NCBI GenBank assembly: GCA_041662625.1
Contig: JBAZSB010000001.1
Location: 617,385 to 681,384, forward strand
Direction of reading: 5' to 3'
DNA from: Patescibacteria group bacterium
GTDB taxonomy: Bacteria; Patescibacteriota; Patescibacteriia; Buchananbacterales; UBA6539
DNA: 64,000 nt
The notes below the pieces were generated by a model, which worked only from the letters and a program-made list of their open reading frames with translations, was not told the origin of the DNA and ran no database searches. This document shows positions 26,174 through 63,245 of the stretch, piece after piece. The translations under genes were made by a program, and so were the position numbers. Positions within the stretch are counted from its first letter, which is position 1. Every line of letters starts with the position of its first letter.

Positions 26174-26248
26174 CGCGGGATAGAGCAGTAGCAGCTCGCC
26201 AGGCCCATAACCTGGAGGTCGGGGGTGCAAATCCCCCTCCCGCAACCA
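26174..26248 (+). tRNA. initiator tRNA-fMet (anticodon CAT)
   Basis: CGCGGGATAGAGCAGTAGCAGCTCGCCAGGCCCATAACCTGGAGGTCGGGGGTGCAAATCCCCCTCCCGCAACCA; C1:A72 mismatch and A11:U24 typical of bacterial initiators; 3' end ...CCCGCAACCA like E. coli tRNAfMet. Confidence 0.8.
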
Positions 26249-26275: not shown

Positions 26276-26404
26276 CCAGGCCCATAACCTGGAGGTCGGG
26301 GGTGTCCCGACGCACATTATTTGTAATATTAATAAAGAAGTCGGGATCCCGATGATATTTAGAAATAAATTAAGGAATCGGGACAAATCCCCCTCCCGCA
26401 ACCA
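26276..26404 (+). pseudogene. partial duplicate of tRNA-fMet (anticodon stem to 3' end) carrying an ~80-nt structured insertion in the T-loop
   Basis: ccaggcccataacctggaggtcgggggtg [tcccgacgcaca...gtcgggatcccgat...aatcgggac] aaatccccctcccgcaacca; no 5' acceptor or D-arm upstream; insertion bounded by GTCCCGAC / ATCGGGAC inverted repeats. Confidence 0.7.
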
Positions 26405-39413: not shown

Positions 39414-39802
39414 GGGGATGTCTAAAATCGATAGGATCTAGATTTAAAGTCCTCAGGTCGAGCATTGGTCTACTTGGCTCGCTAATCTCAATGACCAAAC
39501 AAATAAGTGCCAAATCACTTGTCGCTAAGGTAAAAAGTGCTTTCAGCTCTTTAGCCTTAGCTCCCGCTTTGGCCTAAAAACCCAGAGCCATCAGCCCGGT
39601 GATGCCTAATAGCCGGTCCCTGGTGTCAATAATTAGGCTGCCGCAAGTTAATGCCTCATTGATTTGCATAAGCACTTGAGGCTTTGGCTTTTGGGGTTTT
39701 GTCAGTTTTTGACCCAAAGGCCGAAAATAAAAATTGACTAAACCTGTAAAACTATTTTGAATCTAATTCTAGACAGGGGTGCAAATCCCCTCATCTCCAC
39801 CA
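39414..39802 (+). ncRNA. ssrA: tmRNA (ssrA)
   Basis: 5' GGGGATG... pairs with 3' ...CATCTCC-A-CCA giving G3:U70 (Ala identity); T-arm GGGG-TGCAAAT-CCCC; internal tag frame ...AFSSLALAPALA-TAA ending 39577; immediately downstream of smpB. Confidence 0.8.
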
Positions 39803-40826: not shown

Positions 40827-41174
40827 ATGCCACGAGTAAAAAGAGGAAAAACTCACGTTGCCAAACGGAAAAGACTTTTTCAAAAAACTAAAGGCTATCG
40901 CTGGGGCCGCAAAAACACCATTCGCTTAGCCAAAACCGCAATCAACAAAGCCGGTGTCCATGCTTATACTGGCCGCAAAAAGAAAAAAAGAGTCAACCGG
41001 GCTTTATGGCAGATTCAAATCAACGCCGGCACCCGCCAGTACGATTTAAGCTATTCCAAATTCATCCATCTGCTCAAAAAGAACAAAATCGACCTGGACC
41101 GCAAAGTCTTAGCCGAACTTGCCGGCAAGCAACCGAAAGTTTTTGCCAAAATCATTTCTGAAGTAAAAAAATAA
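40827..41174 (+). CDS. rplT: 50S ribosomal protein L20
   Basis: MPRVKRGKTHVAKRKRLFQKTKGYRWGRKN...; infC-rpmI-rplT operon order. Confidence 0.9.
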   Translation: MPRVKRGKTHVAKRKRLFQKTKGYRWGRKNTIRLAKTAINKAGVHAYTGRKKKKRVNRALWQIQINAGTRQYDLSYSKFIHLLKKNKIDLDRKVLAELAGKQPKVFAKIISEVKK

Positions 41175-41197
41175 ATTACAATAAAAAATTCCACAGC

Positions 41198-41244
41198 GGA
41201 GGCGTACCCGCCCGCTTCGCGTTCGGGCAAGGCTCAGTTGGTTA
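41198..41244 (+). pseudogene. tRNA-Asp 5' fragment (acceptor 5' strand + D-loop) interrupted by a GC hairpin insertion
   Basis: GGAGGCGTA [cccgcccgcttcgcgttcgggcaag] GCTCAGTTGGTTA then diverges; preceded by ttccacagc, which is the reverse complement of gctgtggaa at 41686-41694. Confidence 0.6.
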
Positions 41245-41271
41245 TCTCTTTAAAAAAATAAAGTGCAAAAC

Positions 41272-41345
41272 GGAGGCGTAGCTCAGTTGGTTAGAGCGTC
41301 TGCCTGTCACGCAGAAGGTCGTGGGTTCGAGCCCCATCGTCTCCG
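41272..41345 (+). tRNA. tRNA-Asp (anticodon GTC)
   Basis: GGAGGCGTAGCTCAGTTGGTTAGAGCGTCTGCCTGTCACGCAGAAGGTCGTGGGTTCGAGCCCCATCGTCTCCG; flanked by aaagtgcaaaa / ctttgcacttt inverted extension; no CCA. Confidence 0.85.
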
Positions 41346-41395
41346 CTTTGCACTTTATTTTTTATTATCCAAAAGCCAATTATAAAATTAGGGGG

Positions 41396-41510
41396 GTCAC
41401 GCAGATTTACCCGCCGTAGCGCAAGCATAGGCGGGAGGTCGTGGGTTCTGCGCCACCTTAATTAATAAAAAAGGCGCACCAGCCTCTGGCTGGGAGCCCC
41501 ATCGTCTCCG
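41396..41510 (+). pseudogene. tRNA-Asp 3'-half copy with two GC-hairpin insertions (after anticodon stem and in T-loop)
   Basis: GTCACGCAGA [tttaCCCGCCgtagcgcaagcataGGCGGG] AGGTCGTGGGTTC [TGCGCCaccttaattaataaaaaaGGCGCAccagcctctggctgg] GAGCCCCATCGTCTCCG + ctttgcactttatttttt. Confidence 0.6.
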
Positions 41511-41542
41511 CTTTGCACTTTATTTTTTATTATCCAAAAATC

Positions 41543-41685
41543 GAGGGTTCGCCTGCCCCGCCCTAAGTCTTTAACCAAAAGACTAAATACTCATTTAAAG
41601 TAAGGCGTCAGCCGTTTCCGAGAGATTAAGTTAGAATACTAAATTTACTCTTTCGGACTTAGGGCGGGGAGCCCCATCGTCTCCG
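41543..41685 (+). pseudogene. tRNA-Asp T-arm/acceptor 3' copy with a ~110-nt insertion bounded by 14-bp inverted repeats (MITE-like)
   Basis: GAGGGTTCG cctg [CCCCGCCCTAAGTC ... GACTTAGGGCGGGG] AGCCCCATCGTCTCCG ctgtggaa. Confidence 0.6.
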
Positions 41686-41877
41686 CTGTGGAATTTTTTT
41701 TGTTAGCCAAAAGCGTCTGCCTGCCTGCACCGCCATTACTATCAACCCAGCCACCCCAAAAGGGCGGTTTTTAGTTAATCCCGATATGTATTTACTACGC
41801 CCTGGAAGCCACTTGACAAAAAATGCTATTCCATTATACTAAATAATACCACCTAAATAATAATTGAATATTGGAAT

Positions 41878-42237
41878 ATGGCAAAAGCACACATAACCAC
41901 CGAGAATGGCGTAAAAATAACAATTGAGGGAACGCCAGAGGAAGTAAGCACCTTAATGAAAAAAATGAAAACCGGCCGCTCAAAACAGAACTATTTTAGC
42001 GCGGCAAAACGAATTTCAAAAAACCGGGCAAAGGCAACCCCCATGAATTTAATTGATGGACTTATAGATGGTGGTTTTTTTAAAAAACCTCAGGAACTTA
42101 GTGCAATAAAAATTGCTTTGCAAGAACAAGGTCATAATTATCCGGTAAATCGCCTTTCCCCTGCCCTAATACGTCTAGTACGAAAAGGGCAATTAAAAAG
42201 AAAAAAAGATAAGAAGCTGTGGCTATATACCAACTAA
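41878..42237 (+). CDS. small basic winged-helix protein, paralog 1 of 5
   Basis: C-terminal module LIDGLIDGGFFKKPQELSAIKIALQEQGHNYPVNRLSPALIRLVRKGQLKRKKDKKLWLY shared by the next four genes. Confidence 0.55.
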   Translation: MAKAHITTENGVKITIEGTPEEVSTLMKKMKTGRSKQNYFSAAKRISKNRAKATPMNLIDGLIDGGFFKKPQELSAIKIALQEQGHNYPVNRLSPALIRLVRKGQLKRKKDKKLWLYTN

Positions 42238-42259
42238 TTAAAATTATATTTAAAATTTT

Positions 42260-42583
42260 ATGGCTTCAAATGAATCACAAAATAAAAAAATAATAATTAG
42301 ATTAGAGAAACTCGAAGCGGTTGTATTCGGAGACGGTAAGACATCAAAAAAAATAAAAAAGGATTCATCGTTTAGGGGACCAAAGGGTGGATGTCAATTA
42401 ATTTTGTCCAAGGGATTTTTTAATAAAAAGAGAGCTGTTGATGAAACAAAGAAGGAATTAGAAAAATATGATTATTATTATTCACGAGATGCCATTCAAA
42501 CAGCTCTTAATCGGATGTCTAAAAATAACGGGCTATTAGTTTCTCTCAAGGGTAAACCAAAAATGTATGTCAAAAGAAAGTAG
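42260..42583 (+). CDS. small basic winged-helix protein, paralog 2 of 5
   Basis: N-terminus IIIRLEKLEAVVFGDGK paralogous to paralog 4; C-terminus LILSKGFFNKK...AIQTALNRMSKNNGLLVSLKGKPKMYVKRK. Confidence 0.55.
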   Translation: MASNESQNKKIIIRLEKLEAVVFGDGKTSKKIKKDSSFRGPKGGCQLILSKGFFNKKRAVDETKKELEKYDYYYSRDAIQTALNRMSKNNGLLVSLKGKPKMYVKRK

Positions 42584-42836
42584 TAAAATTGCGAAAAGTG
42601 CACCTGATAGTTTAAAACTTTTATGGTCAAGAGGATTTTTCAAGTCCTGGAAAAATTATGGTCAAATTACTAAAAGTTTATCTAATAATGGCTATAATTT
42701 TACTACCTCCGGACTAAGTATGGCATTAGAACGTGCCAAGCATCTAACTAGGCGGGGCAAACGGGGCAATTACGAATACATTCAAAAATATCCTTTTGTT
42801 AAAGAAGGAGGTGAAAAGTCGAAAAATCATAAATAA
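42567..42836 (+). CDS. small basic winged-helix protein, paralog 3 of 5
   Basis: LLWSRGFFKSWKNYGQITKSL...LSMALERAKHLTRRGKRGNYEYIQ; overlaps previous gene by 17 nt. Confidence 0.5.
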   Translation: MSKESSKIAKSAPDSLKLLWSRGFFKSWKNYGQITKSLSNNGYNFTTSGLSMALERAKHLTRRGKRGNYEYIQKYPFVKEGGEKSKNHK

Positions 42837-42841
42837 CTACT

Positions 42842-43153
42842 ATGGACAAAACTACAAAAAATTTATTAATACGTGTTGAGAAACTTGAAAATGCAGTTTT
42901 CGGTACTAAGAAAAAAATAAAAACTGCTACGGGCGATGAGAAAAGCCTATCGAATCATATTATCGGATTGCGCGATCGCAGTACTTTTAGACAGCCGCTA
43001 ACGCCAAAAGAAATTCATGAAAAACTGGAATCCACCTATCCTTGTGACCTCAGTCGGGTCAAAGTAGAATTAATCCGACTTCAAAAGCGAAGGCAACTTA
43101 GAAAAACTTCAAAATTAATCGGGAAAAAGAGATACGTAGCATATGTCTGGTAA
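42842..43153 (+). CDS. small basic winged-helix protein, paralog 4 of 5
   Basis: LLIRVEKLENAVFGTKKK ... LSRVKVELIRLQKRRQLRKTSKLIGKKRYVAYVW. Confidence 0.55.
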   Translation: MDKTTKNLLIRVEKLENAVFGTKKKIKTATGDEKSLSNHIIGLRDRSTFRQPLTPKEIHEKLESTYPCDLSRVKVELIRLQKRRQLRKTSKLIGKKRYVAYVW

Positions 43154-43889
43154 CTCTCTCAAGAAAAAAGCCCGCGATCTTATCATCGACTCGAAGAGCC
43201 GCTATGTACTGATACAAAAACTTATTATCGGAGGATTTTTTGATTCACCAGTTTCAAGCGAGCGAACAGTTTTGGCTATAAAAGAAAAATTTGGTAAGCA
43301 ATGGAAAACCAATTATGTGCAGACATATATGCAAAAATTCATGTCGGCCGGCATTATTCACGCCATAAAGCCCAAAGGACAAAAATGTAATTATTGGGTT
43401 CTCGTAAACGTGACAAGGGAAATGGCCCTACGAGAAATTGGCAAGAGTATAAAAGTACAGGAAATCCAAGAAGAACTTTTCTCCAAAGCACTCGTGAATC
43501 GCTTACAAAAAAATTTCGGCCAGGACTTAGATGAATTACGTGAAAATTTTGGCAGAAATGGAAATTCGACGGCATTCTTATTGAGAAAAATTCTTGAAAA
43601 ATTGATTATTATTGTCTTTGCTAAGAATGGTAAGGAAAAACTTCTTGAAGATAAAAATCGGCCAGGTGGATGGGTTGGCTTAAAAGAAATGATTGAAATA
43701 GCAACCCGAGAAAAATTGAATGGTATTTCATTTTTAACAGCTAAAACGGGAAATGAAATAAGAGGGCTCAAATTTCTTGGTGATACCGCTGCACATAATC
43801 CTCTAGTAGATGTGCAAATGAGCACCATTGTTCCCCAGATGCCATTTATTATTACAGCATATGAAGAGCTCGCGAAAAGACTTCGATAA
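43143..43889 (+). CDS. winged-helix paralog 5 fused to a C-terminal alpha-helical domain, possibly DUF4145/HEPN-like
   Basis: N-terminus LIQKLIIGGFFDSPVSSERTVLAIKEKFGKQW...; C-terminus ...LRKILEKLIIIVFAK...EIRGLKFLGDTAAHNPLVDV...AYEELAKRL ([RK]xxG[ND]xxAH-type motif). Confidence 0.5.
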   Translation: MSGNSLKKKARDLIIDSKSRYVLIQKLIIGGFFDSPVSSERTVLAIKEKFGKQWKTNYVQTYMQKFMSAGIIHAIKPKGQKCNYWVLVNVTREMALREIGKSIKVQEIQEELFSKALVNRLQKNFGQDLDELRENFGRNGNSTAFLLRKILEKLIIIVFAKNGKEKLLEDKNRPGGWVGLKEMIEIATREKLNGISFLTAKTGNEIRGLKFLGDTAAHNPLVDVQMSTIVPQMPFIITAYEELAKRLR

Positions 43890-44004
43890 AGCAACCCCCA
43901 CTTCCTATCCGCCCGCCCCAAATCCATCCTAATTTTCAAAAAAGAAAAATCGCCTCTCGACTTCCCCTTCTAAATACTTAACGTCGCTCGAGGCGGTTTT
44001 TTGG

Positions 44005-44065: not shown

Positions 44066-44740
44066 TCAGTCCGGACAGCACATCGGGAACGTTTGCCCCG
44101 GAAAGTGTTCCTCGTTCCAGGACCAGCCCCCTGCTTCCTCCTTGCCTAAAACCTCAGGCGGTTTTTCGCAATTCCATTTGGTGCGTGCCTGCTCGCGATC
44201 ACCCATAATGGTAATACAAGTTGCATCGGAACAGTAGAAACAGCCAACTTCGTCGCCTGGTATAGCTATTTCCTCAATTCCAATACTGCCACATGCAGGA
44301 CAGTAACCATAGCGATCGTCCTGGAACCACTCGTCTTCCCGAACGACCTTGTCCGACCCGACGGTCCGCGGAAAAGGCAACATCGCCGTCACTTGCCTCA
44401 GTATTTCTTGCATTTCGTCGGGCGTCAAGCCCCGTTTTTCGACCGAAACATCGCCCCAACGATAGATTCGACTACTGGACCAGGTGATGATCTTAATCGC
44501 CGGATTTTTCGCCCTGATCGCCTGGGCAATTTTGGCGCCATCGTTTCCTGAACTATCCCCCAGCGTGAGGTTACCATCGACTATCGCAACATGGATCTTC
44601 AGGGAATCCAATTGATCCACGATTGCCAATGCTGCCTCCAATGTTTCCGCTTCGGTAACGGAGTGACCTGCCCCTTCCAGCCCCCGCTTTACGATTCTGC
44701 GGCCGCTGGGTCTGTCTTCGACCAAAAATACATTCGCCAC
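44066..44740 (-). CDS. GC-rich response-regulator receiver (REC) domain protein with C-terminal Cys-rich zinc-ribbon-like domain; likely horizontally acquired
   Basis: SD GAGGAGG then GTG; VFLVEDRPSGRRIVKRGLEGAGHSVTEAETLEAALAIV...IHVAIVDGNL...KIITWSS (CheY-like D/D/K); C-terminus CPACG...CFYCSDATC...WNCEKPP...PMCCPD; GC-rich relative to the flanks. Confidence 0.6.
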   Translation of the reverse strand: MANVFLVEDRPSGRRIVKRGLEGAGHSVTEAETLEAALAIVDQLDSLKIHVAIVDGNLTLGDSSGNDGAKIAQAIRAKNPAIKIITWSSSRIYRWGDVSVEKRGLTPDEMQEILRQVTAMLPFPRTVGSDKVVREDEWFQDDRYGYCPACGSIGIEEIAIPGDEVGCFYCSDATCITIMGDREQARTKWNCEKPPEVLGKEEAGGWSWNEEHFPGQTFPMCCPD

Positions 44741-59442: not shown

Positions 59443-60825
59443 CTACTCCTTCGGCGGTGTCATCTTGACACCCATTCCGTAGAAGCCTTCTCGAAGCACC
59501 CCGACAATCTCGTCGAGTTTCTCCGAGTTCTTCGCGTTGACGTCAGCGTTGGCCTGGTTGGCTTTCGCATTCGCCTGGTTGGCATCGGCCACGTCTTTGG
59601 TCACCTTGACCAACTGCTCCATCGACTGGGCCGTCCGGTCAAGCGAATTGCCCACTCTGTCCAGCGTGTTGGACACCAGCCCATTCGCGCGGGCCGGATC
59701 CAAGCCGGATACGCCGATTGCTCGACCGTGCGCGCTCATCAGCGCTTCAACCGCCTCATTGACTTCCGACCCATCTCCGTCGGCGATGGCCTTGTAGACC
59801 ATGCGGTCCCAATGGACGTTCCGAGAGCCAATGACTTCGAGTTCGCCGTGATTGTCAAGGTAGACTTTGGCATGAAGCCGGTTGTCTACAACCTGGGCTC
59901 CTTCGATGTCCTCCTTGGTCGCTGCTGCTTCGGTGGCCTTCTTGGCGGGCTCGTCCTTGGCGGCCTTGGCCACTTCCGTAGCCTGAGCCTTGGCCTTCGC
60001 GTCGTCGGACGCCGCCTCCTTGTGTCTGGACCACCCGAACACCAAGCCGATAGCCAGGACGAGACAGGCAGCCACGATCAGGAAGCCTCTGTTCAACCAG
60101 AACGGTATCCCGGTGGCGACGCCTCCGTCTGCTGTCGGCTCGGGCCGATTGCGGTCCCGACGCGGCTGGCGTTCCTCGCGCGGCCGAAAGGGAAGATCCT
60201 CGTGTCCCCGCGGCTGGCGTTCCTCGTGTCCCCGACGTGACGGCGCTCTCCGACCACCGCGATCTTCCCGATCGCCAAGCGGTTCGAAGCCACCGTCCGG
60301 ATCGAAGCCACCGCCTCCATCGACGTCCGGATTAAACTCCGAACCGCCTTCGACTGGTTGCCCCGACGGAACAATGGTCGGGATCTCGAAACCGCCCTCG
60401 TCAGGATCCCCGCCACTTGTTGCAGCGGAGAAAAGCGGCGGCGGGGTTCGGCCGGCGGCAACGGGCCCTTCTTCATCCAGGCTGAGACGATTCTCATCAA
60501 GGAAGAGCGGGGGCGGGGTGGTGCCGACGGGCTGCTTGCCTTCTTCGGGGACATCTGCCAGCGGCACAAATCCGAACTGCTGATCTTCTTCCGCACCGGC
60601 AGTCGGAAAGGCTGTGCCAGCGGCAGCAGGAATTCCCGGTGCGGCTCCCCTCAATGCCTCGACGAAGGCTACTCCTGCCGGATCGGCACGAAAGTGTTCT
60701 TGATCGTCCGCTTGGAACAGGGCATCGAGATCACTCTGACCCATCCCGGACTCACTCCGTGCGTCGGTCACTTCTTGCCCCGGACCGGCTTCGGGATCTT
60801 TTGCTCCACTCGTGTTCTCGTCCAT
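59443..60825 (-). CDS. GC-rich single-pass membrane protein with disordered acidic/Pro-rich cytoplasmic N-region and extracytoplasmic C-domain
   Basis: 460 aa; TM at about 237-260 (GFLIVAACLVLAIGLVFGW); internal nucleotide repeats (cgcggctggcgttcctcg x2) encoding EERQPRGHE / REERQPRRD. Confidence 0.5.
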   Translation of the reverse strand: MDENTSGAKDPEAGPGQEVTDARSESGMGQSDLDALFQADDQEHFRADPAGVAFVEALRGAAPGIPAAAGTAFPTAGAEEDQQFGFVPLADVPEEGKQPVGTTPPPLFLDENRLSLDEEGPVAAGRTPPPLFSAATSGGDPDEGGFEIPTIVPSGQPVEGGSEFNPDVDGGGGFDPDGGFEPLGDREDRGGRRAPSRRGHEERQPRGHEDLPFRPREERQPRRDRNRPEPTADGGVATGIPFWLNRGFLIVAACLVLAIGLVFGWSRHKEAASDDAKAKAQATEVAKAAKDEPAKKATEAAATKEDIEGAQVVDNRLHAKVYLDNHGELEVIGSRNVHWDRMVYKAIADGDGSEVNEAVEALMSAHGRAIGVSGLDPARANGLVSNTLDRVGNSLDRTAQSMEQLVKVTKDVADANQANAKANQANADVNAKNSEKLDEIVGVLREGFYGMGVKMTPPKE

Positions 60826-60858
60826 TACTCGACACTCCTTCTTGTAAGGCGGCTGGAT

Positions 60859-62082
60859 TCAGCCAACCGCCGGCCTGATTTCAACGTTCACTTCACTGCC
60901 ATTCACTACCATCAACCCAAGAGGGGCTTCCGGCCGATTCGTCTCTTCGAACACCAGGTTACTTTCCCATTTGCCGCTCTCCCCCTGGTGGATTTCATGG
61001 AGAGCGACTGCCCCAAACGATCCCTGCCGAACTTGAATCTTTCGGTAATCTTTGGGTAGCTTGTCGAAGACTACCTTGAACCGATCACCCTGATCGGCGA
61101 TTACCTTGGACCAGGTCCAACTGTCGAGGTCGTCGGGGTTGCCCGGCTTCACTGTCACCGTGTCCGTCTTCGGATGCGGCTTGGTGGGCCAGGTCGCCTT
61201 GGCAATGCTGGAACTGGTAGGAGCAGCAGCTACCTTCTCTTTGCTCGCAGGCAAAATTTGAGGTGGCTCTTCTTTTGGCGTTGCCGGTGGGCTCACCGAT
61301 GCGGCCAAATTGGGCTGCTCAACTACCTTCTGAATGGTATCAAATCGGATTTCTCCGCGCTTTACCAACCAGACACCATTCGAATCTGGTTGATACTGCT
61401 CGATCGGGACCATGTTAGCGGACATCCCGGTCTTGCCAGTCAAGCGAAAACTGGCATAAAGCGGCAGGTCGGGCCGAATCTCGAAAGTCGGGTCAACGAT
61501 CCACTTCCAGACCTTCTTCTTCTCACCCGACTGTTCGTCCACAACCTCTTCGATTACATTCCGATAGACCGGCGGGGTAACCTTGGGATCCCGGACGAAT
61601 TCGCCCGTTGTCTCATCCTTACGGAAGAACGGCTTGAGCTCCACGAGCTCGAAATCCGTCATCCCAGCCTGGATGAGTTCGAGCCGCTTTCCTGCCTGGT
61701 CGATATCCAAGAGGTCACCTGACATCTTGTCTGACGACGCAGCCAACGGATTACGGCCGGAAGTCAAACCGACCTTCTGCGACATTACTTGCAGTCGCGT
61801 TGGGCCAGTTCTGACCTCACTACTGACTTCGACTCCCAGATCCAGATTGGGTATACCGGGAAGGTTCACTTCCGGCACCTGCTGATCCAGGAGCGGCACG
61901 AGCAGCAGGAATGGCGTCGCCAAACAGGCCAACACCAACCATTTGCGTGCCCGCGTCTTCCAGAACAGTACAACCGCTACTGCCACCACCGCCATAATAG
62001 CCCCGGCCAAAGTGGTCAACCACCAAGCCAGAACCAAAACGGCTGCCAAAACGATGAATCGCCATATCCAGAACATGCTCAT
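60859..62082 (-). CDS. GC-rich membrane protein (two N-terminal TM) of unknown function
   Basis: 407 aa; ATGA overlap with the upstream gene, suggesting translational coupling. Confidence 0.5.
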   Translation of the reverse strand: MSMFWIWRFIVLAAVLVLAWWLTTLAGAIMAVVAVAVVLFWKTRARKWLVLACLATPFLLLVPLLDQQVPEVNLPGIPNLDLGVEVSSEVRTGPTRLQVMSQKVGLTSGRNPLAASSDKMSGDLLDIDQAGKRLELIQAGMTDFELVELKPFFRKDETTGEFVRDPKVTPPVYRNVIEEVVDEQSGEKKKVWKWIVDPTFEIRPDLPLYASFRLTGKTGMSANMVPIEQYQPDSNGVWLVKRGEIRFDTIQKVVEQPNLAASVSPPATPKEEPPQILPASKEKVAAAPTSSSIAKATWPTKPHPKTDTVTVKPGNPDDLDSWTWSKVIADQGDRFKVVFDKLPKDYRKIQVRQGSFGAVALHEIHQGESGKWESNLVFEETNRPEAPLGLMVVNGSEVNVEIRPAVG

Positions 62083-63245
62083 TCTCCTCGTCTCTTCCTA
62101 CCACCCGTCCCGCGGGTGGGTTTACTCGTTGGAATTTCTGTCTCTTCTGCGTCTTCAGCCACCTTCTCCTTACCACCGGCCTTGGCCCCAGACGAATCAA
62201 CACCGCCAAAGTCCAAGGTTACGGTTGGAAAACGGAGACCACCTTTCCCTGCTGCCAAGGTGTTTTGTAATCCCTCGGCAACCGGAAGAAAGATATTCCA
62301 CGGTGACTCGTCCGGCATCCCAGCGCCTTTCCTTAGGCTCTCCAATGCCTTACCGCGCTGAACTGCAGCCCGCGCACCCAACTCCGACTCGGTCACATGG
62401 GCCATTCCTGCCAGAACTTTTTCCAGAGGAAAGATGTTCTGGAAGCCAATGACTACCCTGATACCGAATCGTCCGATGTCGGGAACTTCCTCTTCAACGC
62501 CGCCGTTCATAATCTTGGTCGCGGCGTCGGCGAGTTGCATTAGTTCTCCCGCGTGGGCGATCTCAACTAACTCCACATCGGAGTAACCCGTTGTGACGTA
62601 GTTGATCGCGACTGACATAGCCTGAAGGATTACATCTTTCGATTTCCCCTTCAGGACGACAGCCCAGAGGATGGGATCAATCACTTCATACATCACGGTA
62701 GGATCCACATCAACCGGATTCGTTCTGGTGTTGGTCCGCACCCTCTTGGCATCAAGGCCTTGGGTTCGCATATCAACGACCTGAACTTCTACCCACAACA
62801 ATTCCGGCAGAACGATCATCTGCCAACCCTGACGCAAGTCTTGGTAGCTTCTCGCGTCCGAGGTATCATCACTTGGAGAAAATGAATTTCGTACCACCCA
62901 CGAAAACTTCTGGGGGATGTTACGAATTTCCACTAACCCAAGGATGACAATCCTCGTCATCAGGATCGGCTTACCGATTTCTTCATCCCGGCCGACTTCC
63001 TTCTTCTCCCAGAGGAAAAGAGGAACTCCTTGCTTCTGGCAGAACCACCGCCAGAAAAGGATTGCGCCACCAATCAGCGGCACAGCCACAGCGACAGTTA
63101 CCTTTGGGTTTTCACTCCACCCGAGGATAAACAGTGTCACTGCCAGCGCTAGCAGAACCAGCGCCTTGATCACTACCATTGCCAGTCTCATGTGTTTCGC
63201 TCCTTTCCAGAGTATCTCCAGGTCCCAAAGGACCTTACGTTGCAT
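62079..63245 (-). CDS. GC-rich SPFH / band-7 (stomatin/HflK-C-like) domain membrane protein
   Basis: N-terminal TM, then SPFH-like core (…ILMTRIVILGLVEIRNIPQKF…VDMRTQGLD…DVILQAMSVAINYVTTGYSDVELVEIAHAGELMQLADAATKIM…). Confidence 0.5.
   Translation of the reverse strand: MQRKVLWDLEILWKGAKHMRLAMVVIKALVLLALAVTLFILGWSENPKVTVAVAVPLIGGAILFWRWFCQKQGVPLFLWEKKEVGRDEEIGKPILMTRIVILGLVEIRNIPQKFSWVVRNSFSPSDDTSDARSYQDLRQGWQMIVLPELLWVEVQVVDMRTQGLDAKRVRTNTRTNPVDVDPTVMYEVIDPILWAVVLKGKSKDVILQAMSVAINYVTTGYSDVELVEIAHAGELMQLADAATKIMNGGVEEEVPDIGRFGIRVVIGFQNIFPLEKVLAGMAHVTESELGARAAVQRGKALESLRKGAGMPDESPWNIFLPVAEGLQNTLAAGKGGLRFPTVTLDFGGVDSSGAKAGGKEKVAEDAEETEIPTSKPTRGTGGRKRRGE

What the first reader, a model, noticed from the sequence alone, without database searches (positions are those of the whole stretch)
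41190..43889. tRNA-Asp locus shattered into partial copies with GC-hairpin insertions, followed by a tandem array of five paralogous winged-helix proteins
An intact tRNA-Asp (41272-41345) is surrounded by three partial copies. Each copy is interrupted by a GC-rich hairpin insertion, one of ~110 nt bounded by a 14-bp inverted repeat. The array ends are themselves inverted (ttccacagcGGAGGCG ... CGTCTCCgctgtggaa). Directly downstream are five tandem, diverged paralogs of a ~100-aa basic winged-helix protein. The last is fused to a helical domain with an [RK]xxG[ND]xxAH motif (DUF4145/HEPN-like). Next come a foreign-GC REC-Zn-ribbon gene, a small TM protein and a YvpB-like peptidase. Duplicated tRNA 3' segments are the usual scars of integrase-mediated insertion, and small MITE-like hairpin insertions in tRNA fragments are unusual. 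A diversified wHTH array ending in a HEPN-like fusion resembles an uncharacterised defence or addiction island. Taken together, this may be a novel mobile/defence locus.
Basis: partly seen in the sequence, partly recalled or inferred. Interest (0 to 1): 0.8.

Follow-up and report, generated by a model that had tools for sequence, protein, structure and literature searches.

The report
Nested, hairpin-split tRNA-Asp copies plus HEPN cassette
One working tRNA-Asp gene of a Patescibacteria genome sits among dead tRNA-Asp pieces split at loop positions by GC-clamped hairpin insertions, a pattern that recurs across this phylum, and an unrelated, horizontally spread five-gene operon ending in a predicted HEPN RNase has landed just downstream.

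The parts
41183..41204 (+). Left arm of the outer inverted repeat (AAAAAATTCCACAGC + GGAGGCG): 5' leader and acceptor strand of the outer, ancestral tRNA-Asp copy. It pairs with 41678-41699.
   Evidence: I3: 22 nt, 95% complementary
41198..41244 (+). Fragment A: tRNA positions 1-9 (41198-41206), a 25-nt GC-rich insert at the 9/10 junction (41207-41231, weak hairpin), then positions 10-22 (41232-41244).
   Evidence: D2, D8; z -1.2
41253..41363 (+). Intact tRNA-Asp(GTC) (41272-41345) bracketed by a 26-nt inverted repeat of its own leader and trailer (41253-41278 / 41338-41363).
   Evidence: (I1)
41396..41539 (+). Fragment B: positions 35-44. A 30-nt hairpin follows at the variable-loop position 44/45 (41406-41435), then positions 45-57. 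Two hairpins sit in the T-loop (41449-41493), then positions 58-74. B ends with a 29-nt copy of the intact gene's 3' flank (46-nt perfect repeat 41494-41539 = 41329-41374).
   Evidence: z -2.7 and -4.2
41544..41699 (+). Fragment C: T-arm 5' side (GAGGGTTCG). A 117-nt AT-rich insert in the T-loop follows, bounded by a 14-bp GC-clamped inverted repeat (41553-41669). Then come positions 58-74 and the right arm of the outer inverted repeat (41678-41699).
   Evidence: I8, I3; z -5.6
41712..41732 (+). Fragment D: positions 24-35 (AGCGTCTGCCTG), followed by the truncated left end (cctgcaccg) of the anticodon-loop hairpin element that is complete in L017, L020, L043 and L062.
   Evidence: (D3)
41733..41775 (+). 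Original trailer and terminator-like hairpin plus T-run (ccattactatc...agccaccccaaaagggcggttttt). It is conserved after the array in L017 and L062. The stem is imperfect here and the consensus scan did not call it.
41813..41840 (+). Promoter-like site of the cassette (TTGACA-16-TATACT, 11 of 12).
41878..42237 (+). p1: 119 aa, basic, GFF-motif small protein. Orthologues at 54% in a Binataceae cassette and 34% in L062.
42260..42583 (+). p2: 107 aa, basic, with an N-terminal helix like that of p4.
42567..42836 (+). p3: 89 aa, basic. Overlaps the end of p2. Orthologues at 46-53% in other cassettes.
42842..43153 (+). p4: 103 aa, an N-terminal helix plus a winged helix. Its stop overlaps the p5 start by 11 nt, and it always lies directly upstream of p5.
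43143..43889 (+). p5: 248 aa, an N-terminal winged helix plus a C-terminal HEPN (DUF4145-like) domain. R148, E152, K153 and H218 are invariant; K210 is nearly so (K210-x7-H218).
43983..43997 (+). Terminator-like hairpin plus T-run that closes the cassette.
26276..26404 (+). The same phenomenon at another gene: a 3' partial copy of tRNA-Met (positions 26-54 and 55-75), split in the T-loop by a 79-nt double hairpin.
   Evidence: z -3.4

Best explanation
There are two separable things.

(1) The tRNA-Asp array, 41183-41775.
- It is an ancestral tRNA-Asp gene in pieces. Its 5' end (A) is still joined to the rplT spacer, and its 3' parts are still joined to the original trailer and terminator.
- A complete tRNA-Asp gene, with its own self-complementary leader and trailer, is nested inside and does the work.
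- The dead pieces have been split, only at positions that are single-stranded in the cloverleaf, by a family of GC-clamped palindromic insertions 25-120 nt long.
- I infer that these are small non-autonomous mobile elements that insert into single-stranded loops extruded by tRNA genes. A hairpin-recognising DNA enzyme would supply the activity in trans, for example an IS200/RAYT-type Y1 transposase or a GIY-YIG nuclease, both of which sit at this locus in relatives.
- Some family members carry a whole tRNA gene, which would explain the nesting.
- The pieces persist because interruption leaves no identity tract longer than about 17 nt to recombine. The one exception is the recent 46-nt repeat.

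(2) The cassette, 41813-43997.
- It is an autonomous, horizontally transferred operon. Four small basic winged-helix proteins precede a winged-helix-HEPN protein, and p4 is translationally coupled to p5.
- I infer that p5 is an RNase-type toxin or effector, held in check or targeted by the small DNA/RNA-binding partners. That would make it a toxin-antitoxin or abortive-infection style module.
- It landed in the variable site downstream of tRNA-Asp.

Shown: anatomy, recurrence, covariation, folds, distribution and contexts. Inferred: mobility mechanism, RNase activity and the defence role.
For: Array:
- Colinear pieces and both inverted repeats.
- All interruptions fall at 9/10, the end of the D-loop, 34/35, 44/45 and the T-loop, here and in L016, L017, L020, L037, L043 and L062.
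- In L017 the 3' two-thirds (D + hairpin + B) are contiguous and run into the same trailer and terminator as in the window.
- L012 and L015, among the closest by L20 (79-80%), have a plain gene plus terminator, so the shattered state is derived.
- The variable-loop hairpin keeps a 6-bp outer stem, a 3x3 internal loop and an inner stem of 2-7 bp across 5 copies. 95.5% of cells pair, 3 pairs change on both sides, and 4 of 500 shuffles reach the observed values. The T-loop hairpins show GCGCC/GGCGC against CCGCC/GGCGG and CCAGCC/GGCTGG against CCCGCC/GGCGGG.
- The CCCCGCACC... end family is in a D-loop (L017), in anticodon loops (L062 twice, L024) and in an intergenic spacer (L052). In L024 it encloses a complete tRNA-Leu(CAG) inside an outer tRNA-Leu(CAA), which ARAGORN recognises once two inserts are removed in silico.
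- L062 holds 3' ends of at least three different tRNA-Asp alleles, so foreign DNA has entered repeatedly.
- Mobile-DNA enzymes occupy this very site in relatives: Y1_Tnp 1.5e-15 (L012), a large serine recombinase with an RM system (L014), GIY-YIG 1.7e-14 inside the array (L016).

Cassette:
- Its own promoter and terminator.
- 721 homologues at 58-74% identity in Patescibacteria, Acidobacteriia, Terriglobia and Binataceae. Gene order is conserved and p1-p4 have separate orthologues.
- DUF4145 scores below threshold in 12 of 28 homologues.
- H218 is invariant and K210 nearly so, with the same x7 spacing as the catalytic R146/H154 of the DUF4145 RNase RAZR.
- Neighbours include HigB, PIN/PhD, BrnT, VbhA-Fic, an Mrr-like REase, a large serine recombinase and a prophage TerL end.
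- The same N-terminal domain is fused to CHAT in P0216.
Against: Array:
- No second copy of any hairpin exists elsewhere in the 64-kb window.
- There are no target-site duplications.
- No transposase, GIY-YIG or recombinase homologue lies in the window. Mobility therefore rests on between-genome comparison of a few copies.
- Compensatory changes in DNA palindromes can arise by template switching without selection.
- Fragment detection used exact matches, so the apparent perfect identity of pieces to the live gene is partly ascertainment.
- Some copies are clearly decaying: L062 copy at 592, and the anticodon stem of the L024 outer gene.

Cassette:
- No Pfam, PADLOC or PDB sequence hit reaches threshold.
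- Lys replaces the canonical catalytic Arg in 27 of 28 close homologues.
- There are no phage, plasmid or IMG/VR matches.
- Paralogy of p1-p4 with the p5 N-terminus is not statistically shown.
Confidence: 0.5

Rival explanations
1. Classical att-site scars only. The partial copies are attR/attL remnants of successive integrase-mediated insertions into tRNA-Asp, with anticodon-loop and T-loop crossover classes. The element bodies were later deleted, and the hairpins are leftover element ends or terminators.
For: Several 3' copies start at the anticodon arm or the T-arm, the known integrase sublocations (PMC9897764 for the general mechanism). L014 has a large serine recombinase island abutting tRNA-Asp. 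L062 carries foreign tRNA-Asp 3' alleles. The region downstream of the tRNA is variable.
Against: It does not predict 5' fragments upstream (A here; L016, L017, L037, L043). It does not predict interruptions inside the duplicated segment at loop positions only, or a nested complete gene with a new leader. It also does not predict the same hairpin family in a D-loop in one genome and an anticodon loop in another. Spacing between copies is only tens of nucleotides.
Confidence: 0.17
2. The hairpin-bearing tRNA-like pieces, especially B, are a selected, functional structured RNA or DNA element. Candidates are a processing, stability or termination module for the tRNA-Asp transcript, a decoy for tRNA-targeting nucleases or integrases, or a protein-binding site.
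For: tRNA-derived segments and stems are conserved while loops have turned over. There are compensatory pairs, and a conserved 3x3 purine-rich internal loop with inner stems of different length. In each genome the fragments carry that genome's own acceptor variant: A3/U70 here, G3/C70 in L017. A HEPN cassette lies next door in two genomes.
Against: Close relatives L012 and L015 lack the array entirely. Copies are degraded or rearranged in L062, L016 and in the window itself, where D is separated from B. No Rfam family matches. Only 5 copies are available for covariation. L016 and L017 have the array but no cassette, and cassettes elsewhere have no array.
Confidence: 0.15
3. The hairpins are RNA-level intervening sequences or introns, like the hairpin intervening sequences of 23S rRNA or archaeal bulge-helix-bulge introns. 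They would be excised from transcripts of the interrupted copies, which would then still contribute tRNA.
For: Insertions lie only in loops, with their ends paired into long stems. The outer copies are colinear and nearly complete in L017 and L024. Patescibacteria are known to be intron-rich, including group I introns at 35/36 of tRNA-Asp (PMC13011429).
Against: An intact uninterrupted gene is always present. In the window the pieces are not colinear, because D follows C. The inserts are far too short for group I introns and none is detected. The L024 outer anticodon stem has two mismatches. No splicing endonuclease was sought or found.
Confidence: 0.08
4. The cassette is a set of ordinary transcription regulators, with multiple winged-helix repressors and a non-catalytic HEPN-like sensor domain, and is not a toxin or defence system.
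For: All five are basic winged-helix-type proteins. One source names a homologue 'predicted transcriptional regulator'. Lys replaces the catalytic Arg. There is no PADLOC hit.
Against: Identity of 58-74% across phyla with patchy distribution indicates horizontal spread. Neighbours are repeatedly toxin-antitoxin, restriction or prophage genes. The His and the [KR]x7H spacing are invariant, as in the active DUF4145 RNase RAZR. The N-domain is fused to a CHAT protease elsewhere.
Confidence: 0.2

Closest known systems
tRNA gene fragments left by integrative elements (attL/attR; Williams 2002 sublocations; reviewed in PMC9897764)
   Same: Partial 3' copies of the target tRNA lie in direct orientation next to the live gene. 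They start at the anticodon arm or T-arm. Cargo downstream is variable.
   Different: Here there are also 5' pieces upstream, copies are interrupted internally at loops by hairpins, a complete gene is nested inside an older one, and spacing is tens of nucleotides with no element body.
Small palindromic mobile elements (REP/BIME with RAYT transposases, IS200/IS605-derived PATEs, MITEs, Rickettsia palindromic elements)
   Same: They are 25-120 nt long, with GC-rich terminal inverted repeats and an AT-rich interior. Hairpin structure is kept by compensatory change. They occur at different sites in different genomes. A Y1_Tnp gene sits at the homologous locus in L012.
   Different: There are no target-site duplications. 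There are no multiple copies within the 64 kb examined. They are strongly confined to loops of tRNA gene copies. One member carries a whole tRNA gene. No cognate transposase has been identified.
Group I introns at position 35/36 of tRNA-Asp/Asn in Patescibacteria (Nakagawa et al. 2026, PMC13011429)
   Same: Same phylum, same tRNA, and an insertion in the anticodon loop.
   Different: The inserts here are 20-125 nt, not ribozyme-sized. No Rfam group I match was found. The boundary is at 33/34 or 34/35, without the U/G splice-site signature. Other loops are also hit. The carriers are fragments, not the working gene.
RAZR / PD-T7-4 (zinc finger + DUF4145 HEPN RNase; PMC13017515) and the DUF4145 branch of the HEPN superfamily (PMC3710099)
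   Same: A C-terminal DUF4145-like HEPN fold with a basic-x7-His motif, an N-terminal nucleic-acid or partner-binding domain, and defence-island contexts.
   Different: The N-terminus is a winged helix, not a Cys4 zinc ribbon. Lys mostly replaces the catalytic Arg. Two to four small winged-helix genes always accompany it. There is no PADLOC hit and no Pfam hit above threshold.
HEPN-MNT (HepT-MntA) toxin-antitoxin systems
   Different: There is no nucleotidyltransferase partner. The upstream partners are winged-helix proteins. The HEPN domain is fused to its own winged helix.

Membership tests
Integrase att-site tRNA fragment | A partial copy comprising the 3' part of the tRNA, from the anticodon or T arm to the 3' end, in direct orientation | tested here: met
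   B, C and the tRNA-Met copy
Integrase att-site tRNA fragment | An integrated element with an integrase or recombinase lies between the intact gene and the fragment | tested here: not met
   The copies are separated by 27-60 nt. No recombinase lies in 38-50 kb, and there is no homologue of the L014 recombinase anywhere in the window
Integrase att-site tRNA fragment | The duplicated segment is an uninterrupted repeat of the tRNA sequence | tested here: not met
   The segments are split at 9/10, 34/35, 44/45 and 56-58 by hairpins
MITE / REP-type palindromic mobile element | Terminal inverted repeats or a stable hairpin, and small size | tested here: met
   14-bp perfect inverted repeat; z -2.7 to -5.6
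MITE / REP-type palindromic mobile element | Multiple dispersed copies in one genome | tested here: not met
   No copy outside the tRNA loci within the 64-kb window. The rest of the genome was not available.
MITE / REP-type palindromic mobile element | The same element at non-homologous sites, as evidence of movement | tested here: met
   The CCCCGCACC-ended family is in the L017 D-loop, the L062 and L024 anticodon loops, and the L052 intergenic spacer
MITE / REP-type palindromic mobile element | Target-site duplication and/or a cognate transposase | tested here: inconclusive
   No consistent duplication at the junctions. A Y1_Tnp gene lies next to tRNA-Asp in L012, but none is in this window
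Group I intron in tRNA | [quoted passage not shown] | tested here: not met
   No Rfam Intron_gpI match at E<=10 in 41100-41900 or at gathering score in 13 related loci. The inserts are 20-125 nt
Archaeal-type split or BHB-intron tRNA | A bulge-helix-bulge motif at the exon-intron junctions, and a splicing endonuclease in the genome | not tested
   The organism is bacterial (tmRNA, SmpB). The motif and the enzyme were not searched for.
HEPN superfamily | A four-helix up-down bundle fold | tested here: met
HEPN superfamily | A conserved R-x(4-6)-H catalytic motif | tested here: inconclusive
   H218 is invariant. The basic residue is K210 (R in 1 of 28) at x7 spacing, as in DUF4145 of RAZR (R146/H154), not x4-6
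Pfam DUF4145 | A score above the Pfam gathering threshold | tested here: not met
   No hit for the window protein. 12 of 28 homologues hit at best E 0.011, below the cut-off
RAZR / PD-T7-4 | An N-terminal Cys4 zinc-finger domain, and a match to the PADLOC model | tested here: not met
   The N-terminus is a winged helix, and PADLOC gives no family for p5 at E<=1
HEPN-MNT toxin-antitoxin | An adjacent minimal nucleotidyltransferase antitoxin | tested here: not met
   No NTase domain in p1-p4 or in the neighbours
Type III toxin-antitoxin (ToxIN-like RNA repeats + terminator + toxin) | A tandem RNA repeat array obligatorily upstream of the toxin gene | tested here: not met
   Cassettes in other phyla have no tRNA or repeat array upstream. 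L016 and L017 have arrays without the cassette

The most novel reading that the evidence does not exclude
Patescibacteria may harbour a previously undescribed class of palindromic elements that home specifically into the single-stranded loops of tRNA genes. Some of them would carry a complete tRNA gene as cargo. They would therefore replace the gene they destroy and build nested 'tRNA inside tRNA' loci. Alternatively or in addition, the conserved hairpin-bearing tRNA-like modules could be functional RNAs. The neighbouring four-winged-helix plus HEPN operon would be a new multi-component RNase defence system.
Probability: 0.25. Interest if true: 0.8.

Novelty: new variant of a known kind. Interest (0 to 1): 0.62.

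Why it matters
If the hairpins are loop-targeting mobile elements, they would be a new way for selfish DNA to exploit tRNA genes. They would also explain how tiny, streamlined genomes keep accumulating tRNA debris. They matter for annotation too. Fragments and interrupted copies can be miscalled, and Patescibacteria tRNA sets are already known to be under-detected because of introns. The nested arrangement, a tRNA gene delivered inside a hairpin into another tRNA gene, would be a mechanism for tRNA gene replacement and horizontal spread. The cassette is a large family with no structure or assigned function. It has 721 homologues in the 90%-identity database and 110 representatives at 50% identity. 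It couples several winged-helix proteins to a DUF4145-like HEPN domain, the domain class recently shown to be an abortive-infection RNase. It is a concrete candidate for a new defence or addiction system.

Tried and rejected
- Assembly artefact: rejected. Two other assemblies reproduce C, D and the cassette.
- Group I intron or other Rfam family in the array: none.
- Genome-wide hairpin family within the window: none. The two exact CCTGCCCCG matches elsewhere are in coding sequence, and the count equals chance.
- Hairpin-interrupted tRNA-Asp as the only copy in some genome: not found. ARAGORN, with and without intron mode, found only intact genes in the 1.5 kb after rplT in 45 loci, or none.
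- Array and cassette as one system (type III toxin-antitoxin-like or decoy): not supported by co-occurrence. Note, however, that L062 also has a p1-like gene after its array.
- Cassette on phages or plasmids: no tblastn hit in INPHARED or PLSDB, and no relative in IMG/VR.
- Sequence-level relatives of p5 in the PDB: none.
- AFDB Foldseek library: not available.
- Profile-profile link between p4 and the p5 N-terminus: the equivalent motif is aligned but the match is not significant.
- Scan of viral contigs for the CCCCGCACC inverted repeat: returned a different nested-palindrome family, not near tRNAs. It is not evidence for this element.

Full report
**Setting.** The window comes from a Patescibacteria MAG. 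The 248-aa protein is NCBI 'WC675_03300 [Patescibacteria group bacterium]' on a 922-kb contig. Upstream of the finding lie a permease, smpB, tmRNA (39414-39802), infC, rpmI and rplT. This order, followed by tRNA-Asp, is conserved in Candidatus Buchananbacteria-like genomes recovered with the L20 protein (L012-L018, L020).

**Observation.** ARAGORN and Rfam find one intact tRNA-Asp(GTC) at 41272-41345. Exact-match and repeat analysis finds same-strand pieces of it:
- A: positions 1-9 and 10-22, upstream of the gene.
- B: positions 35-44, 45-57 and 58-74.
- C: T-arm 5' side and positions 58-74.
- D: positions 24-35.

Together A, D and B cover the whole tRNA except G23. The outer 22-nt inverted repeat joins the leader of A to the trailer of C. 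A separate 26-nt inverted repeat joins the leader and trailer of the intact gene. The live gene therefore sits inside an older copy.

The inserts between pieces are hairpins. DNA folding z-scores are -2.7, -4.2 and -5.6, and the insert in A is weak at -1.2. Independent assemblies reproduce C, D and everything downstream, and they break inside the 46-nt perfect repeat.

**The phenomenon is recurrent.**
- L017, L016, L018, L020 and a metagenome contig L062 (L20 83% identical) carry tRNA-Asp pieces around an intact gene, with breaks at the same tRNA positions.
- In L017 the 3' two-thirds are contiguous. They read D, an anticodon-loop hairpin, 35-44, a variable-loop hairpin, 45-57, two T-loop hairpins, then 58-75. 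They run straight into the same trailer and terminator that follow D in the window. This is the displaced 3' part of the ancestral gene.
- L012 and L015 have a plain gene plus terminator, so the shattered state is derived and patchy.
- More distant Patescibacteria show 5' pieces upstream and 3' pieces downstream of a tRNA-Asp of different sequence (L037, L043). L038 has two tandem 107-nt units after tRNA-Lys, and L024 has a nested tRNA-Leu.
- In this window tRNA-Met (26174-26248) is followed by a 3' copy split in the T-loop by a 79-nt double hairpin.
- Every interruption I could place lies in a loop or junction of the cloverleaf.

**Nature of the hairpins.**
- The variable-loop insert is homologous in five copies. 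It has TTTA, a 6-bp stem (CCCGCC or CCCTCC), a 3x3 purine-rich internal loop, and an inner stem of 2, 2, 7 or 5 bp with unrelated sequence.
- On a five-sequence alignment 95.5% of cells pair, three pairs change on both sides, and only 4 of 500 shuffles reach the observed values. Slid controls drop to 30-50%.
- The T-loop hairpins also differ by compensatory pairs between the window and L017.
- One family, with ends CCCCGCACCAAAT.../...ATTTGGTGCGGGG, about 110-125 nt and an AT-rich interior, lies in the D-loop in L017, in anticodon loops in L062 (twice) and in an intergenic spacer in L052.
- In L024 its arms enclose a complete tRNA-Leu(CAG) gene inserted in the anticodon loop of an outer tRNA-Leu(CAA). 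That outer gene also has a CCTGCC-initiated hairpin in its D region. After removing both inserts in silico, ARAGORN calls an 87-nt tRNA-Leu(CAA) with perfect acceptor and T stems but a degraded anticodon stem.
- A second family (cccgcccgaacgac...gtcgttcagtcgggcggg) occupies the D-loop in both L016 and L062.
- The junction CTG|CCTGCCCCG recurs in window C and D, L020 and L043.
- None of these hairpins has another copy in the 64-kb window. No Rfam family, including group I introns, matches.
- The known Patescibacteria tRNA-Asp introns are ribozymes at 35/36 (PMC13011429). They are a different thing, and that paper does not mention fragments or hairpins.
- Literature searches found nothing describing this pattern in the library.

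**Mobile DNA at the site.**
- L012 has an IS200/RAYT-type Y1 transposase gene directly after the plain tRNA-Asp (1.5e-15).
- L014 has a large serine recombinase plus Vsr and an RM system abutting the tRNA.
- L016 has a GIY-YIG ORF (1.7e-14) inside the array, whose stop codon is the TAG at tRNA positions 8-10.
- L062 contains 3' ends of at least three different tRNA-Asp alleles.
- No homologue of these enzymes is in the window.
- I therefore favour serial insertion at a hot spot plus colonisation by palindromic elements that target single-stranded loops. The enzyme is inferred, not shown.
- Classical att scars (PMC9897764) explain some 3' copies. They do not explain the 5' pieces, the loop-only splits or the nesting.

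**The cassette.**
- A strong promoter-like site (41813-41840, 11 of 12) and a terminator (43983-43997) delimit five genes. None hits Pfam or PADLOC.
- p5 has 721 homologues at 58-74% identity in Patescibacteria, Acidobacteriia, Terriglobia and Binataceae. It has 110 cluster representatives in the 50% library.
- It is always preceded by two to four small ORFs, and the last overlaps its start by 11 nt.
- tblastn shows p1, p2, p3 and p4 each have their own orthologues (35-54%) in those cassettes, in the same order. They are an old module, not local duplicates.
- The AF2 model of p5 (pLDDT 87.8) is a winged helix plus a helical bundle.
- DUF4145 scores below threshold in 12 of 28 homologues.
- Across representatives at 23-46% identity, R148, E152, K153 and H218 are invariant and K210 nearly so. 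The K/R-x7-H spacing equals the catalytic R146/H154 of the DUF4145 RNase RAZR (PMC13017515).
- p4 (pLDDT 77) is a helix plus a canonical winged helix, with the same PDB neighbours as the p5 N-terminus. Profile comparison is not significant.
- Contexts are HigB, PIN/PhD and BrnT toxin-antitoxin genes, DUF3800, VbhA-Fic, an Mrr-like REase with GIY-YIG, a large serine recombinase, and the end of a prophage next to TerL.
- The N-domain is fused to CHAT in one relative.
- There are no matches in phage, plasmid or IMG/VR collections.
A toxin-antitoxin or abortive-infection RNase role is the best inference but is untested.

**Linkage.**
- Relatives with arrays (L016, L017) lack the cassette. L016 has TrmB-like, unknown and DHH genes before the conserved C39 peptidase (73% identical to the window's), so that peptidase is core, not island.
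- Cassettes in other phyla have no adjacent tRNA, apart from a tRNA-Arg 4.3 kb away in L001.
- L062, however, has a p1-like gene (34% identity against 83% for L20) right after the same terminator.
- So different cassette variants have used the same site. The association is one of location, an insertion hot spot, not of mechanism.

**Verdict.** It is too simple on origin and wrong to treat the array and the genes as one system. Both parts are uncharacterised variants of known kinds. The tRNA-loop hairpin and nested-gene pattern is the more surprising part.

Noticed in passing
window 26276-26404: A 3' partial copy of tRNA-Met (positions 26-54 and 55-75) lies between the two tRNA-Met genes. It is split in the T-loop by a 79-nt double hairpin (tcccgac..gtcggga / tcccgat..atcggga).
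   Followed up: partly
window 44066-44740 (- strand): A receiver-domain protein (Response_reg 1.4e-7) with a Cys-rich C-terminus. Its GC is 0.535 against 0.409 for the window. It is convergent with the cassette and absent from relatives at this site.
   Followed up: partly
window 59443-63245 (- strand): A block of 52-62% GC in a ~40% GC genome holds three large minus-strand ORFs (460, 407 and 388 aa). It is probably foreign DNA.
   Followed up: no
L016 6126-6389; also L016 4332-4526, L043 4871-5068, L058 4910-5086, L030 7406-7642: Small GIY-YIG ORFs sit next to or inside tRNA and tmRNA loci in several Patescibacteria. In L016 the ORF ends on the TAG at positions 8-10 of the intact tRNA-Asp.
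   Followed up: partly
L024 8660-8960: A complete tRNA-Leu(CAG) gene is enclosed by CCCCGGCACCAAA/TTTGGTGCGGGG arms. It lies inside the anticodon loop of an outer, slightly degraded tRNA-Leu(CAA), which also has a hairpin in its D region.
   Followed up: partly
L038 826-1040: Two tandem 107-nt units follow tRNA-Lys. Each has the 3' flank, a hairpin, positions 34-47, a hairpin replacing the T-stem 5' strand, and positions 54-76.
   Followed up: no
L068-L118 (IMG/VR), e.g. L090 7598-7717, L068 5948-6067: Low-GC viral contigs carry a nested palindrome family: GCAGGGAACCAAGGTT-CCCCGCACCCCTCC, about 80 nt of AT-rich sequence, then GGAGGGGTGCGGGG-AACCTTGGTTCCCTGC. It is not near tRNAs and is probably unrelated to the Patescibacteria elements.
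   Followed up: no
window 41253-41363 and relatives (L016, L017, L020, L037, L043, L062): tRNA-Asp genes in these lineages have 5' leaders complementary to their 3' trailers over 8-19 nt, followed by a T-run. The acceptor stem is thereby extended into a terminator-like hairpin.
   Followed up: no
P0216: A 336-aa protein joins the p5-type N-terminal winged helix to a CHAT protease domain (3.1e-9). This suggests the winged helix is a swappable sensor or adaptor module.
   Followed up: no
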